Shown here: one piece after another, positions 13,124 through 16,942 of the stretch
Layout: every line of letters begins with the position of its first letter
Position numbering within the stretch: the first letter of the stretch is position 1
Source of the DNA: a virus
Strand: one strand, 5' to 3'
Length of the DNA stretch: 50,432 bases
Virus record (IMG/VR): IMGVR_UViG_3300029258_003011
Program-made: the position numbers and the translations under genes
Notes under the pieces: model-generated
The model's input: only the letters and a program-made list of their open reading frames with translations
Told to the model about the DNA's origin: nothing
Database searches by the model: none

Positions 13124-13143
13124 TACAATCTCCTTTAAATGGT

Positions 13144-13167
13144 GGAGGGGACCAATTGATCCCCTCC
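13144..13167 (-). terminator. GC-rich intergenic stem-loop (GGAGGGGA-8nt-TCCCCTCC)
   Basis: Perfect 8-bp GC-rich inverted repeat 12 nt after the stop of the coiled-coil gene and 11 nt before the SD of the NADAR gene. No U-tract, so a terminator or a processing site cannot be distinguished. Confidence 0.45.
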
Positions 13168-13179
13168 TTCTCTATGTTA

Positions 13180-14214
13180 TTATTTCTTTCCGGTGGTTCC
13201 ATCTCCAATTTTGGACAGAAGGTCTTCGATCATTTTCTGACTTCCGATACCTTCAACAGTCTTGACTGCCATGGTCTTGATTTCCTTATATGCTTCATCC
13301 AGTTTGCCTTGCAAAGTAGTGATTGTATTTACATGAGTCTCAACAATCTTATTAAGTTCTTCGACCTTTGCATTTGCAACGCTGGTGGTTGAGGCAGAAG
13401 TTGCTTCCATGAATTTCTTCTCTGTATCGAATTTGCTCTGAAGCATTCCCTTCTCTTTTCCAACTGCGGCATTGATTGCTCTCTCGATCTCTTCCGGCAT
13501 TCCAGCAACTTTTTCTTTTAGATCCTCAATCTCCTGCTCTTGAGATTTGATCGCTTCTTCCCGTTCGTTAAGATCGTTGCTTCTCTTTCTGAGTTCTTCG
13601 ATCTTTTGATTAGCAGCTTCTTCGAGCTCTTTTCGTTTTGCGGCGAGTTCGTCTTCAAGTTCATCCAATCTCGCCTTTTTCATTCTTTCAAAGGAATACT
13701 GGTCTTCCTCTTCTTTGCGCTTTTTGGTTTCGTTATATTCGCGGGTTTCATCCTGAATTTTCTTTTCCAGGTCAGAAAGCTTTTGATTGAGCTCCTCTAC
13801 TTTCTCTGCGGACTCTTTTTCAAAGGTTTCTTTGATCGCTGCTTGGGAGTCGACCAGTGCGGCAAGAGTTTCGGCAGTTTTCTCAATTCCAAACAAATCC
13901 TGTAATTCTTTCTCTTTCGCTGCGATCGCATCCTTGATATTGGTATATACATCAAGTTCTCCGCTCAGCATCCCTGCAAAAGTTTCTACCTGATGCACCA
14001 GATTTTCAATGCTATCGGCACTCAGATTCTTCTCTGCTTCGGTTATGACCGCTTGAGTTGCGGAATCGGTTTTCTTGCCTTCGATATCTAGAAGATTCTG
14101 CCGAGCTTCTTTCAATCTGTCTACAGCAACCTTATATGCCGCAAGCATTACATCTTTGGTTGTTTTCGCATTAACCTTCGGGATATCATTCGTGTTCGCC
14201 TTCTTTGTCGTCAT
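13180..14214 (-). CDS. Hypothetical acidic coiled-coil protein
   Basis: 344 aa, E/K-rich heptad-like sequence throughout, no enzymatic motifs. Flanked on both sides by GC-rich hairpins and sits immediately downstream of the MVP-like gene. Confidence 0.4.
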   Translation of the reverse strand: MTTKKANTNDIPKVNAKTTKDVMLAAYKVAVDRLKEARQNLLDIEGKKTDSATQAVITEAEKNLSADSIENLVHQVETFAGMLSGELDVYTNIKDAIAAKEKELQDLFGIEKTAETLAALVDSQAAIKETFEKESAEKVEELNQKLSDLEKKIQDETREYNETKKRKEEEDQYSFERMKKARLDELEDELAAKRKELEEAANQKIEELRKRSNDLNEREEAIKSQEQEIEDLKEKVAGMPEEIERAINAAVGKEKGMLQSKFDTEKKFMEATSASTTSVANAKVEELNKIVETHVNTITTLQGKLDEAYKEIKTMAVKTVEGIGSQKMIEDLLSKIGDGTTGKK

Positions 14215-14255
14215 TTGGATATTCTCCTTATACCTATATAAAATTAATTAATAAT

Positions 14256-14278
14256 GGGAGGACTATAAAAGTCCTCCC
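14256..14278 (-). terminator. GC-rich intergenic stem-loop (GGGAGGAC-7nt-GTCCTCCC) downstream of MVP-like gene
   Basis: Perfect 8-bp inverted repeat 25 nt after the MVP-like stop, followed on the minus strand by AT-rich 'ATTATTAATTAATTTT' and the SD of the next gene. Confidence 0.5.
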
Positions 14279-14303
14279 TTCGAATAAATCTCACCGTTTC
14301 CGA

Positions 14304-16853
14304 TTATTCTTCGGTACCGGTTTTGTCTTCTCCCATCATTCCTTCAAAATCAATCTGACCGTCAAGGGCGGTACCTCTTATAATCAGACTTGCAGCTTCA
14401 ACAACTGATTTGGCACCAATCATTGATTTTACATTGAAGTTTCTGGACAGTTCTGCAAGGAGATTCTTGTCGCCTTGTGCTTTCATTGCTGCGATCAATT
14501 GAGGAGTAATCGCACCAAATTTCTTAATTTCGGCGTCTGCTACATCCTTCGCTTCCTGTACCGTAATTTCGCTCATGATCTTATTATGTTTCACTTTCTG
14601 GTCATTCTTGAGCTCAATTCTCTTCATTTCTTCAGCATTCACCTCATTCAACGATTCCTGCAGTTCTTTGGTAAGATCAAGCTTCACTTTTTCTTCATGA
14701 ACTTTGGTTTTCGCTTTCTCTTCTGCGAGTTCTGCCGCTTTCTTCTCCTTCGCTATTTCGATATCCTTCAACTTCATTTCGGTTTGCTTTTTCTCTTCTG
14801 CCTCTTCTCGAGCATACTTTTCTTTCAATTTAGTAGCGTCGAGTTCACGTTTCTTCTTCGCAACTTCTAAGGTTTGGGTTATTGATTCGGTTTGTGCATT
14901 CTGGAGTTGAAATTGCAATTCATCGTCTCCAATCAGAATGCCCAGAACTTCAACGTCGGTTATTTTCATTCCATTTTCAGGGAATGTATAACCAGGTCTT
15001 ACATGTAATCCGGGATCATCACCTTCTTTCAATTCCGGTGCTGTTCCCAAAATCAGATCTCTGAGGAGATCAATATGGTCATTGTTGAAAGTTTCGATAT
15101 TCTTGGTTTTCGCCATTTTTCTGATCATGGATCTGAGGCGATCAACCAGATGTTGAACATAGTTTTCAACATTGAACCATTTTTCCGGGTCATTGGTAAA
15201 ATCAACCTTATATGATAAGGTGACTGAAACATCGACCAGGTCTTTGGTTTGTGCTCTAATGGTATCGGTTACCGTATTGTTCAGATGTCTCAGATACGGG
15301 GTTACAAGAGGACGTTTTGCGGACTTCGGAGTTCCGGTTGATAAAGACATATTAACGAGATCTTCATCGTATTGAAGCAGAATTGTTTTTGGTCCAACTT
15401 CAACGCGATTCGCCGCATCTCCAGATTTGCTCTCAATAAGAACCGCATATCCTCTCCAGATAGATACCCTTACAGCTCCTTCAAATTTCTGGTCGATTAC
15501 AATGGTTCGAGGTTTTGTGTATTCGCTTGATTTGCTGATTTCGTCTCCAGCGAATCCTCTTGCAGATCTTTCTCTCGGAGATGGTGCTCCAAGAGTTTCA
15601 AACCCTCTGCTCATTAAACTTTTTGCCTGAGGACCTCTTGTCATGGTTCGATACATGGTTTCAGACAGAAAGTCCTCTCCAGAATCTGAGTCCTTCCTGG
15701 CATTTGACAGCTGGTCATTGTATACCTTTGCTGCTTCATTTCCAGGGAACCAGGTATCAACAACACTTGGGGACAAAATTCTTCTAACCATAACAAACTG
15801 TCTTGGGTCGGGAAGGAGCATTTTCGGACCCACTTCAAGGTCAATCTTCCCATCCAGTCGATTCATTACATACCGACCTTCTCCAGCAGGCACTGCTGTT
15901 GCATAATGCACTTCATTTCCATCATATTTAATGATGGCATGTTCTTCACGAGGATAGTAAATTGCCGTTTCTCCTCCTGTGATGAACAGTTCATCACCGG
16001 GATTGTAGGTCTTTCCGTTTTCCTCATATTCCGTCGTCACCTTAATATAGATTCCGGAAATTTCATTCAGATTGATTGCTCTGAATTTTCGTTTATCGTT
16101 CTTCGTGATAAACTGCTGAGTAGGTTTCGGAAATACCACATCAGGTCCTTTGACATATTCCTTCTTCCCATTTTCATCAAGCAATACGCAATATTCGAGT
16201 CTCTCAAGAGTTACAGCGTTTTGAACATATTGTTTTCGTCCATGTTCGTCTTTATACTGAACAACTTCAATTCCTGTTGGAGGAATATAGAACGACTGCT
16301 CAGTTCCCTTGATTATCATGAGTTGACCCATTGTGCAACTGGTGGGACGTTCTCCATCTTCTTCATCTCCTGTTGCTCCTGCGGGAATACTGCTTATTGC
16401 TTTATTTGCAGCTTCAGGATCGTAAACTCTTGCAATAAGGTATTGATTGCTTCTTAGATGATGACCCTGCACAACCTTACACATCTGACCTGGGAACAGA
16501 GGAAAATCAATAGGTCCAGGAATATTTATTTTCTTCCCGACCTCGAGATCTACCTTTGCTCCGGTTCCAACGCTTGGATGCTTGTTTTCCGTAGCAGGAT
16601 TTTTCAATACCAAATACCATCCTTCCGGAGCAACCATATTTTTCTGAATTGCTTCGTGAAGCTGGACATTTTTGAATCCCTTTGAGTTGTAGTCAAAGAT
16701 CACCGGTTGATCTGTATTGTCGTCAAGATTCGACTTATGCGGACCAACGTACACTTCCACCTCACCTTTTTGCTTATTCAGGATGAAGGCAAAAGTATTC
16801 GGGGGCAATACCAGATCACGTTCTCTGCTTACACTTCTTCTCGCGTCATTCAT
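14304..16853 (-). CDS. Major vault protein (MVP)-like protein: N-terminal MVP repeats + SPFH-like shoulder + coiled-coil cap-helix
   Basis: 849 aa. Repeat motifs such as '[26 protein letters not shown]' resemble human MVP '[25 protein letters not shown]', and 'IDFPLFPGQ' resembles 'DPFPLYPGE'. '[22 protein letters not shown]' is a further repeat. The shoulder-like '[17 protein letters not shown]...' corresponds to MVP 'LQLAYNWHFEVNDRKDPQE'. A long EAEEKK coiled coil and a C-terminal '[13 protein letters not shown]...' tail follow. Domain order and overall length match MVP (893 aa). Confidence 0.7.
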   Translation of the reverse strand: [849 protein letters not shown]

Positions 16854-16894
16854 AATTCACAACTCCTTTAAATTAAATTAATTAATTGAAATTA

Positions 16895-16919
16895 GGAGGG
16901 CATCTCATTGATACCCTCC
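16895..16919 (-). terminator. GC-rich intergenic stem-loop (GGAGGG-13nt-CCCTCC) upstream of MVP-like gene
   Basis: 6-bp GC inverted repeat in the 89-nt gap after the gp32-like gene, followed on the minus strand by 'TAATTTCAATTAATTAATTTAATTT' and the SD AAAGGAG. Confidence 0.4.
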
Positions 16920-16942
16920 CAGTTTGCCCATTATGAGCATGT

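What the first reader, a model, noticed from the sequence alone, without database searches (positions are those of the whole stretch)
13124..16942. Family of GGGAGG/CCTCCC GC-rich hairpins insulating the MVP-like and coiled-coil genes
Three intergenic stem-loops share a GGAGG-containing palindromic core in an AT-rich genome: GGAGGGGA/TCCCCTCC at 13144-13167, GGGAGGAC/GTCCTCCC at 14256-14278 and GGAGGG/CCCTCC at 16895-16919. Each sits 10-25 nt after a stop and about 10-40 nt before the next SD. None carries a canonical U-tract. They may be terminators for the phage's own RNAP, RNase III-type processing sites, or mRNA-stabilising 3' structures that raise expression of the MVP-like gene. The sequestered GGAGG/CCTCC also mimics SD/anti-SD pairing.
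Basis: seen in the sequence. Interest (0 to 1): 0.5.

Follow-up and report, generated by a model that had tools for sequence, protein, structure and literature searches.

The report
Conserved RNA hairpins ending phage genes
Three GC-rich stem-loops that follow three consecutive genes of an uncultivated huge phage are real, evolutionarily conserved RNA hairpins that most likely act as leaky transcription stops and mRNA-end protectors, which is a familiar kind of phage control element and not a new mechanism.

Summary
GGAGG-N3-23-CCTCC occurs 3 times against 0.16 expected. All three lie in the 5.5% of the window that is non-coding, and they are the three most stable local folds on the coding (minus) strand. 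Every gene runs on the minus strand, so each hairpin follows a stop codon (324-aa, MVP-like and coiled-coil genes). In six related metagenomic phage lineages the same intergenic positions carry hairpins. Their stems differ by compensatory changes while a GGAG/CUCC core persists. Stem imperfections are always G.U on the sense strand, so the sense RNA is what is selected. Some orthologues have canonical U-tracts, as do the hairpins after MVP genes in three distant huge phages. The window's three do not. Downstream genes have no room for promoters, so read-through is required. Best reading: leaky intrinsic terminators and 3'-end-protecting hairpins that favour three compositionally distinct genes. 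They also mark cassette boundaries, because one relative lacks the MVP gene and keeps a single hairpin. RNase III sites and SD/anti-SD mimicry are unsupported. This is a known kind of element (phiKZ conserved terminators, T4-type PeSLs) and of modest interest.

The parts
16893..16921 (-). Hairpin A (hp3). It lies 21 nt after the stop codon of the 324-aa gene. The stem is 12 bp, UGGGAGGGUAUC/GAUGCCCUCCUA, with two G.U pairs and a 5-nt loop. The tail is AUUUCAAUUA.
   Evidence: The sense fold is -20.8 kcal/mol against -15.6 for the antisense strand. Hairpins occupy the same position in L005, L006, L007 and L009.
14256..14278 (-). Hairpin B (hp2). It lies 25 nt after the stop codon of the MVP-like gene. 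The stem is 9 bp, GGGAGGACU/AGUCCUCCC, with a 5-nt loop. The tail is AUUAUUAAUU.
   Evidence: Orthologues exist in L005, L006, L007, L009/L013, L010 and L014, with compensatory changes at 9 of 15 stem positions.
13144..13167 (-). Hairpin C (hp1). It lies 12 nt after the stop codon of the coiled-coil gene. The stem is 10 bp, GGAGGGGAUC/GGUCCCCUCC, with one U.G pair and a 4-nt loop. Only 7-9 nt separate it from the next SD.
   Evidence: The sense fold is -20.4 against -16.4 antisense. Orthologues in L006, L007 and L013 are followed by T5-T6 runs.
16943..17917 (-). The 324-aa gene that ends before hairpin A. GC is 0.416.
   Evidence: It is conserved at 51-67% identity in L005, L006, L007, L009 and L014.
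14304..16853 (-). The 849-aa major-vault-protein-like gene, flanked by hairpins A and B. GC is 0.419 and GC3 is 0.373.
   Evidence: Pfam MVP_shoulder 5e-20 and Vault_3. The gene is absent from relative L014.
13180..14214 (-). The 344-aa coiled-coil gene between hairpins B and C. GC is 0.425 and GC3 is 0.429, the highest GC3 in the window.
12671..13123 (-). The NADAR-domain gene, the first gene after hairpin C. It must be transcribed by read-through.
   Evidence: Pfam NADAR 1.4e-28. The hairpin-to-SD spacer is 7-9 nt. No intergenic gap longer than 21 nt follows, down to position 557.
16875..16886 (-). AT-rich box ATTAATTAATTT, 6 nt 3' of hairpin A.
   Evidence: This is one of only two exact copies on the minus strand. 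Its role is unknown. The count in the whole window is not significant on its own.
14241..14252 (-). AT-rich box ATTAATTAATTT, 3 nt 3' of hairpin B, followed by TATATAG.
   Evidence: The TATATAG box recurs 3' of the class-B hairpin in L007, L009/L013 and L014.

Best explanation
The three elements are stem-loops that form in the sense-strand mRNA just after the stop codons of three consecutive genes (324-aa gene, MVP-like gene, coiled-coil gene). Two steps are shown and the rest is inferred.

Shown:
- The object under selection is the RNA hairpin.
- All three are copies of one GGGAGG...CCUCCC element that is conserved in position across a clade of uncultivated huge phages.

Inferred:
- They work as 3'-end-forming elements. 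RNA polymerase terminates at them only part of the time, because the U-tract is weak or absent, which makes them leaky intrinsic terminators (attenuators).
- The stable G-C clamp then protects the upstream message from 3'-to-5' exonucleases.
- The net effect is more mRNA for the three upstream genes than for the long downstream block (NADAR, ATPase, gyrase and others), which is fed only by read-through.
- As a by-product, the repeated elements mark the joints at which gene cassettes are gained or lost. The MVP gene, and the variable genes after hairpin C, are examples.
For: 1. Real and non-random: 3 matches against 0.16 expected, all intergenic, and the top three local folds on the sense strand.
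2. Positional conservation: in L005, L006, L007/L008, L009/L013, L010 and L014 (MVP 59-71% identical, synteny kept) the strongest sense-strand hairpins of each locus sit at the same three intergenic sites.
3. Structure is selected: anchored pair tables show both-sided changes at 6, 9 and 9 stem positions in classes A, B and C, with pairing kept.
4. RNA on the sense strand: wherever the DNA palindrome is imperfect (A_win, B_L010, C_win, C_L005), the mismatch is G.U on the sense strand. Sense folds are 4-6.6 kcal/mol better than antisense.
5. Terminator ancestry: orthologues A_L007, C_L006, C_L007 and C_L013 are followed by T5-T6 runs. The MVP genes of three distant huge phages (L002, L003, LR756501/L018) are followed by canonical hairpin-plus-U-tract terminators, one with a GGGAGAG stem.
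6. Leakiness is required: the spacer from hairpin C to the SD is 7-9 nt (0-6 nt in relatives). The next 12 genes have no gap above 21 nt, and no sigma-70-like promoter lies in the spacers.
7. The three genes that end in a hairpin are the only ones with GC of about 0.42 and raised GC3 (0.30-0.43 against 0.17-0.33, where all but one of the other genes are at or below 0.29). This is compatible with a highly expressed set.
8. Precedent: the giant phage phiKZ has 61 mapped terminators sharing a homopyrimidine/homopurine G-C stem followed only by TTAT (PMC10914365). In 201phi2-1, only 52 of 132 mapped 3' ends are classical intrinsic terminators (PMC11512511).
Against: - No transcript data exist for this uncultivated phage.
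- None of the three window hairpins has a canonical U-tract. A d'Aubenton-Carafa-type score (formula recalled from memory) is -17 to -35 for them but positive for the window's own canonical terminator at 50321-50356.
- The class-B hairpin lacks a U-tract in all seven lineages (T fraction 0.39 in the first 8 nt, against a 0.32 background). At that site termination may contribute little and stabilisation may be the whole function.
- The raised GC3 could reflect foreign origin instead of high expression.
- Part of the 'compensatory' variation in upper stems is (AT)n, which is self-complementary by slippage.
Confidence: 0.55

Rival explanations
1. The hairpins are purely post-transcriptional. Polymerase reads through completely and the hairpins only block 3'-to-5' exonucleases ('mRNA decay terminators'). 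This would resemble the intercistronic hairpins of the Rhodobacter puf operon or REP elements in malEFG.
For: Canonical U-tracts are absent in the window, and absent in every class-B orthologue. The stems are very stable (-18 to -21 kcal/mol). Read-through is needed for the downstream genes. The puf and REP precedents come from my own knowledge.
Against: Orthologues of classes A and C in relatives, and post-MVP hairpins in distant phages, are canonical U-tract terminators. Termination is therefore the likelier ancestral activity. The two roles are not exclusive.
Confidence: 0.22
2. The hairpins are 5'-terminal stem-loops of transcripts that start at or just before them. They would stabilise the downstream genes' mRNAs (MVP, coiled-coil, NADAR) against 5'-end-dependent RNases.
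For: Each hairpin also lies 7-25 nt upstream of an SD. AT-rich boxes and a TATATAG motif near hairpins A and B could belong to short phage promoters.
Against: The genes that share unusual composition are the ones upstream of the hairpins, not downstream; NADAR is ordinary. U-tracts follow the orthologues. In distant phages the post-MVP hairpin is followed by an opposite-strand gene (L002). No promoter-like site precedes the hairpins inside the spacers.
Confidence: 0.07
3. The elements act at the DNA level only, as recombination hot spots or protein-binding palindromes that mediate cassette shuffling, with no role in RNA.
For: Relative L014 lacks the MVP gene and keeps one hairpin, with the breakpoint at its 5' arm. 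Gene content after hairpin C is variable. A- and B-class hairpins are interchangeable between lineages. There is a PeSL precedent (PMC2839356).
Against: The arms covary instead of keeping a fixed sequence, and imperfections are G.U on the sense strand only. That points to an RNA fold. Recombination at repeated terminators can be a by-product of their repetition.
Confidence: 0.07
4. The hairpins are RNase III (or other double-strand-specific) processing sites that cut the polycistronic RNA into separate messages.
For: They lie between cistrons, as the T7 R sites do (own knowledge).
Against: The stems are 9-12 bp without internal loops. Canonical RNase III substrates span about 20 bp (own knowledge). 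A far better candidate, a roughly 65-bp sense-strand hairpin, lies at 18598-18747.
Confidence: 0.04
5. The hairpins control translation through SD/anti-SD mimicry. The GGAGG arm would act as a decoy or standby ribosome site, or the CCUCC arm would mask the next SD.
For: GGAG is present in the 5' arm of 14 of 17 hairpins, and CUCC in the 3' arm.
Against: Both arms are locked in the most stable folds of the window. The real SD sequences lie outside and are unpaired in the minimum-energy and centroid folds. The hairpins begin 12-25 nt after the stop codon, mostly beyond the reach of a terminating ribosome (inference). The G(5')/C(3') polarity (73 against 8 pairs) is also seen in T4-type PeSL stem-loops, GGGG...CCCC (PMC2839356).
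Confidence: 0.04

Closest known systems
Conserved-motif terminators of giant phages that carry their own multisubunit RNA polymerases (phiKZ: 5'-BCCYCCCCHWWDGGGRRGGBYTTATKYYGT-3', 61 sites, PMC10914365; 201phi2-1: five terminator motifs, PMC11512511)
   Same: The genome is a huge phage's and encodes RNAP beta and beta'. A family of short G-C stems with one homopurine arm and one homopyrimidine arm sits after stop codons and shares a sequence core. A short AU-rich tail replaces the long U-tract (hp2 is followed by A-UUAU).
   Different: Arm polarity is inverted: G-rich 5' arm and C-rich 3' arm here, C-rich 5' arm in phiKZ. There is no sequence match. Only three copies are seen in 50 kb. No 3'-end mapping exists, and the phage clade is unrelated at the sequence level.
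PeSLs (promoter-early stem-loops) of T4-type phages (PMC2839356, PMC4122927)
   Same: The stem-loops are of the G(n)-loop-C(n) type and act as terminators. They are repeated in intergenic spacers and flank variable genes. One genome has hairpin-gene-hairpin where a relative has a single hairpin; here that is L009 or the window against L014.
   Different: PeSLs include a strong sigma-70-like promoter next to the stem-loop. The 7-25-nt spacers here hold none. Mini-circle formation is untested. Copy number in the whole genome is unknown.
Canonical intrinsic (factor-independent) terminators
   Same: A G-C-rich hairpin sits just downstream of a stop codon on the transcribed strand. Several orthologues have T5-T6 tails.
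   Different: The three window copies lack the U-tract, and a recalled discriminant score is negative. They cannot terminate fully, because the downstream genes depend on read-through.
Intercistronic mRNA decay-terminator hairpins (Rhodobacter puf operon; REP in E. coli malEFG), from my own knowledge
   Same: Stable hairpins without U-tracts sit inside an operon, downstream of the genes needed in the largest amounts.
   Different: Those elements are defined by half-life experiments, and none exist here. The sequences are unrelated.
Phage morons (a gene with its own promoter and terminator, inserted between two phage genes, often with a different base composition), from my own knowledge
   Same: The MVP-like gene is 46% identical to bacterial MVPs. 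It has a deviant composition, is bounded by hairpins, and is absent from one relative.
   Different: No promoter was identified. The neighbouring 324-aa and coiled-coil genes share the deviant composition and the hairpins, yet are conserved in all relatives.

Membership tests
Canonical intrinsic terminator | Stable G-C-rich stem-loop on the transcribed strand shortly after a stop codon | tested here: met
   Stems are 9-12 bp at -18 to -21 kcal/mol, 12-25 nt after stop codons on the minus (sense) strand.
Canonical intrinsic terminator | Run of U (about 5 or more of 8) immediately 3' of the stem | tested here: not met
   There are 3-4 T in the first 8 nt for all three, and the discriminant score is -17 to -35. 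The feature is met in orthologues A_L007, C_L006, C_L007 and C_L013.
Canonical intrinsic terminator | Transcript 3' ends map to the tail | not testable with these tools
   No transcriptome is available for this uncultivated phage.
phiKZ-type conserved terminator motif | Match to BCCYCCCCHWWDGGGRRGGBYTTATKYYGT (C-rich 5' arm, G-rich 3' arm, TTAT tail) | tested here: not met
   The arms have the opposite polarity, GGGAGG...CCUCCC. TTAT follows hp2 only. The motif is taken from PMC10914365.
phiKZ-type conserved terminator motif | Genome encodes its own multisubunit RNA polymerase | tested here: met
   RNAP beta is at 20438-24529 and beta' at 24548-27553 (Pfam Rpb2_6 1e-39, Rpb1_2 2e-27).
PeSL (T4-type promoter-early stem-loop) | G(n)-loop-C(n) stem-loop repeated in intergenic spacers | tested here: met
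   There are three copies. G(5')-C(3') pairs number 73 against 8 of the opposite polarity, across 14 hairpins.
PeSL (T4-type promoter-early stem-loop) | Strong sigma-70-like promoter adjoining the stem-loop | tested here: not met
   No promoter-like site lies on the minus strand in 13124-13179, 14215-14303 or 16854-16942. The spacers are 7-25 nt.
PeSL (T4-type promoter-early stem-loop) | Flanks genes that are inserted or deleted between relatives, leaving a single element | tested here: met
   L014 reads p323-hairpin-CC without MVP, with the breakpoint at the hairpin's 5' arm. This is one case only.
PeSL (T4-type promoter-early stem-loop) | Many copies concentrated in hyperplastic regions; mini-circle formation | not testable with these tools
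   The window is the whole 50,432-bp contig. No complete genome of the clade was found.
RNase III processing site | Double-stranded RNA of about two helical turns (about 20 bp), often with an internal loop | tested here: not met
   The stems are 9, 10 and 12 bp.
Any Rfam family | Covariance-model match | tested here: not met
   There were no matches at gathering score over the whole window, and none at E<=1 over 12900-19900.
Moron | Gene with deviant composition bounded by its own promoter and terminator, absent from some relatives | tested here: inconclusive
   Composition, flanking hairpins and absence from L014 all fit. No promoter was identified, and the flanking conserved genes share the same composition.

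The most novel reading that the evidence does not exclude
The GGGAGG...CCUCCC stem itself, and not a U-tract, is the stop signal read by this clade's own multisubunit RNA polymerase. It would be a mirror image of the phiKZ CCYCCCC...GGGRRGG terminator. The same repeated element would then be the joint at which cassettes such as the bacterial-type vault-protein gene are inserted and excised. On this reading, one short RNA/DNA motif governs both the expression and the mobility of accessory genes in huge phages.
Probability: 0.15. Interest if true: 0.5.

Novelty: new member of a known kind. Interest (0 to 1): 0.3.

Why it matters
The hairpins give a first, testable map of transcription-unit boundaries in an uncultivated huge-phage clade that carries a full-length bacterial-type major vault protein gene. 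They suggest that this gene, its coiled-coil neighbour and the 324-aa gene are the heavily expressed products of the region. They add a second example, after phiKZ, of giant-phage gene-end hairpins that share a G-C core and lack a long U-tract. They also add a non-T4 example of repeated terminator-like hairpins sitting at the joints of a gene cassette. For synthetic biology they are candidate compact attenuators. None of this changes current understanding of how such elements work.

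Tried and rejected
- Rfam: nothing at gathering thresholds or at E<=1 over 12900-19900.
- Chance: rejected.
- DNA operator or palindrome: rejected as the main reading, because the arms covary and imperfections are G.U on the sense strand only.
- RNase III: rejected on stem length.
- SD sequestration: rejected, because the real SD sequences are outside the hairpins and unpaired.
- Sigma-70 promoters in the hairpin-to-SD spacers: none.
- ATTAATTAATTT and TATATAG as genome-wide motifs: the counts are not above chance in the window. 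Only their placement next to the hairpins is notable.
- Tool-based pair counting: MAFFT would not keep these short stems in register. I did not use the count of structure pairs or a covariance model. Instead I counted pairs with a script anchored on the GGAG core. That anchoring makes the core invariant by construction.
- Looking for a complete genome of the clade: the nucleotide search of GenBank phages gave only a weak hit to the 735-kb LR756501. IMG/VR held only 37-39% MVP relatives and no coiled-coil relatives.
- PDB sequence searches for the coiled-coil and 324-aa proteins: nothing useful.
- The high-GC loci L015, L016, L002 and L003 were too divergent to compare hairpins, beyond noting canonical terminators after MVP in L002 and L003.

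Full report
**Setting.** The window has 34% G+C and every credible gene is on the minus strand. It encodes unsplit RNA polymerase beta (20438-24529) and beta' (24548-27553) subunits, gyrase subunits, an ATPase and a DUF2201 protein. Its only hits among GenBank phages are uncultured megaphages of 462-735 kb. It is therefore a fragment of an uncultivated huge phage. The window is the entire 50,432-bp contig. There are no tRNAs and no Rfam matches.

**The observation.** Read on the sense (minus) strand, the layout is as follows:
- Hairpin A (16893-16921) starts 21 nt after the stop codon of a 324-aa gene.
- Hairpin B (14256-14278) starts 25 nt after the stop codon of the 849-aa MVP-like gene (Pfam MVP_shoulder 5e-20).
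- Hairpin C (13144-13167) starts 12 nt after the stop codon of a 344-aa coiled-coil gene.
- The next Shine-Dalgarno (SD) sequence follows after 23, 25 and 7-9 nt respectively.

They are not chance. GGAGG-N3-23-CCTCC occurs three times against 0.16 expected, and never in coding sequence. In a 36-nt sliding fold of the whole window they are the three most stable structures on the sense strand (-20.8, -20.4, -18.0 kcal/mol). All three lie in the 5.5% of the window that is non-coding. Each intergenic spacer folds better than its shuffles (z = -3.4, -2.7 and -4.6).

**Strand.** Hairpins A and C are longer and 4-5 kcal/mol more stable on the minus strand, because their imperfect positions are G.U there and A.C on the plus strand. 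The same holds for the two imperfect orthologues, B_L010 and C_L005. A DNA-level palindrome would have no reason for this bias. The selected object is the sense RNA.

**Relatives.** The MVP-like protein has five closer relatives at 59-71% identity, and thousands of bacterial ones at about 46%. I retrieved their contigs, plus two more found with a coiled-coil protein profile. Gene order is conserved: RNAP beta, small genes, a 191-aa gene, a gene of about 325 aa, MVP, the coiled-coil gene, then onward.

In every lineage the strongest sense-strand hairpins of the locus sit at the same three intergenic positions. I call these class A (after the ~325-aa gene), class B (after MVP) and class C (after the coiled-coil gene). 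This gives 17 hairpins in all.

Anchored on the shared GGAG, the pair tables show both-sided changes at 6 (class A), 9 (class B) and 9 (class C) stem positions, with pairing maintained. Some of this variation is (AT)n, which is self-complementary by slippage. However, stems such as ACU/AGU, GUAU/AUAC, AAGAU/AUCUU, GUG/CAC and CAGAGA/UCUCUG are true compensatory sets.

GGAG occurs in the 5' arm of 14 of 17 hairpins. G-C pairs are strongly polarised, with 73 G(5')-C(3') pairs against 8 of the opposite kind. A- and B-class stems are interchangeable between lineages (A_L005 resembles B_L007, and A_win resembles B_L005). The hairpins that flank MVP are therefore paralogous copies of one element.

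**Tails.**
- None of the window's hairpins has a U-tract (3-4 T in the first 8 nt). A d'Aubenton-Carafa-type score, using a formula recalled from memory, is negative for all three. It is positive for the window's own canonical terminator at 50321-50356.
- Class B lacks a U-tract in all seven lineages, with a T fraction of 0.39 against an intergenic background of 0.32.
- A_L007, C_L006, C_L007 and C_L013 are followed by T5-T6 runs.
- In three distant huge phages the MVP gene is followed at once by a textbook hairpin-plus-U-tract terminator: L002, L003 and the 735-kb LR756501. The LR756501 stem is CUGGGAGAG/CUCUCCCAG.

Gene-end termination is therefore the likeliest ancestral role. The window carries U-poor versions.

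**Read-through.** After hairpin C only 7-9 nt remain before the NADAR gene's SD (0-6 nt in relatives). The following 12 genes, down to position 557, have no gap longer than 21 nt. No sigma-70-like promoter lies in any hairpin-to-SD spacer. Unless promoters are buried in coding sequence, the downstream genes need transcripts that pass the hairpins. The hairpins therefore cannot be full insulators.

**The genes they follow.** The 324-aa, MVP and coiled-coil genes are the only ones in the window with G+C of 0.416-0.425, against 0.27-0.375 for the rest. MVP and the coiled-coil gene have the highest GC3 (0.37 and 0.43, against 0.17-0.33 for the other genes, of which all but one are at or below 0.29). 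They also have among the highest shares of C-ending pyrimidine codons (0.36-0.39; most other genes lie at 0.07-0.31, though two short genes reach 0.39-0.41). This fits a highly expressed set, but foreign origin is an alternative.

**Mechanism.** I conclude that the hairpins are 3'-end elements of the sense RNA. They are leaky intrinsic terminators whose stable G-C clamp also shields the upstream message from 3' exonucleases. This gives more mRNA for the three upstream genes than for the read-through-dependent block (confidence 0.55). A purely post-transcriptional decay barrier is the main rival (0.22) and may be the whole story for class B. Giant-phage precedent supports U-poor, motif-sharing terminators:
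- phiKZ has 61 mapped terminators with a CCYCCCC...GGGRRGG stem and only a TTAT tail (PMC10914365).
- In 201phi2-1, only 52 of 132 mapped 3' ends are classical intrinsic terminators (PMC11512511).

The RNase III idea fails on stem length (9-12 bp). The SD/anti-SD idea has no support, because the real SD sequences are outside the hairpins and unpaired.

**Cassette boundaries.**
- Relative L014 has the 323-aa gene, one hairpin and then the coiled-coil gene, with no MVP gene.
- Upstream, L014 aligns with the end of the L009 329-aa gene up to 'TAGATAyATAAwTG'.
- From the GGGAGG of the hairpin onward, L014 is about 95% identical to the L009 post-MVP spacer.
- The breakpoint therefore lies at the 5' arm of the hairpin.
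- After hairpin C the cargo also varies: NADAR plus a 107-aa gene in three lineages, a 64-aa gene in L007, and a 94-aa gene in L013.

This is the pattern described for the PeSLs of T4-type phages, whose stem-loops are also G(n)...C(n) (PMC2839356, PMC4122927). The PeSL promoter component is not present here.

**Verdict.** The elements are a new member of a known kind: conserved gene-end hairpins of large phages. Interest is modest (0.3). The most novel reading still open is that the G-rich/C-rich stem is a U-tract-independent stop signal for the phage's own polymerase and also a recombination joint. I give that a probability of about 0.15.

Noticed in passing
window 18598-18747 (minus strand); also L005 about 4125-4265 and L007 about 4210-4305: A very long sense-strand RNA hairpin sits in the long intergenic region upstream of the 191-aa gene that opens the 324-aa / MVP / coiled-coil cluster. 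Its arms are 51 nt and only 80% complementary as DNA. The sense RNA folds to -93.6 kcal/mol (z = -10.8) against -60.2 for the antisense strand, so the mismatches are G.U on the sense strand. A U-rich run follows it. L005 has the same structure (-104.5, z = -13.8), and L007 has a hairpin of different sequence at the same place. There is no Rfam match. It is a better RNase III or structured-leader candidate than the short hairpins.
   Followed up: partly
L014 2190-2320, compared with L009 2930-3050 and 5850-5995: The MVP-like gene is a present/absent cassette within this phage group. L014 goes from the 323-aa gene through a single GGGAGG hairpin straight to the coiled-coil gene, with the breakpoint at the hairpin's 5' arm.
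   Followed up: yes
window 13180-17917: The 324-aa, MVP-like and coiled-coil genes stand out in composition (GC about 0.42, GC3 0.30-0.43) from every other gene in the window (GC 0.27-0.375; GC3 0.17-0.29, apart from one gene at 0.33). This could reflect high expression or foreign origin.
   Followed up: partly
window 14304-16853: The MVP-like protein is full-length and about 46% identical to thousands of bacterial MVP homologues (Myxococcota, Bacteroidia, Desulfobacterales). It is 39% identical to copies in the 462-kb and 735-kb megaphages LR756500 and LR756501. Phage MVPs have been reported once before, from human gut phages (bioRxiv 10.1101/2023.11.10.566534).
   Followed up: partly
window 12671-13123: A NADAR (ADP-ribose-processing) gene lies two genes downstream of MVP in three of the lineages. 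A 2026 preprint (10.64898/2026.05.01.722283) reports ADP-ribose bound at the shoulder of human MVP. Whether the adjacency means anything is unknown.
   Followed up: no
window 27979-28024 (minus strand): An AT-rich 17-19-bp perfect hairpin (-25.8 kcal/mol for the spacer, z = -5.1) lies between the 482-aa gene and the 129-aa gene that precedes RNAP beta'. A U8 run starts 11 nt after the stem.
   Followed up: no
window 50321-50356 (minus strand): A canonical terminator with an A-tract, a hairpin and a U-tract (AAAAAAGCAACUGAC...GUUGGUUGCUUUUUU). The genome therefore also uses textbook terminators.
   Followed up: partly
window 14241-14252 and 16875-16886 (minus strand); L007, L009/L013, L014 3' of the class-B hairpin: The exact 12-mer ATTAATTAATTT occurs only twice on the sense strand, each time 3-8 nt after hairpin B or A. 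A TATATAG box follows the class-B hairpin in four lineages. These could be a short phage promoter or an AU-rich translation enhancer.
   Followed up: partly
window 16925-16939 (minus strand); L005 5925-5940: A small 6-bp hairpin (UGCUCA-UAA-UGGGCA) lies between the stop codon of the 324-aa gene and hairpin A. L005 also has it (GCUCA-GUG-UGAGC).
   Followed up: no
window 44660-44680: A CCUCC at the end of gene 44671-45819 can pair with the GGAGG SD of the next gene (43937-44656). This is a possible translational-coupling structure and was seen only as a -13 kcal/mol local fold.
   Followed up: no
window 13180-14214: The coiled-coil protein (phrog_29668) has weak homologues (27-33% identity) in Bacillus phage G (gp268), Bacillus phage YungSlug and two Lysinibacillus phages. 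This hints at a low-GC Gram-positive host range for the family.
   Followed up: no
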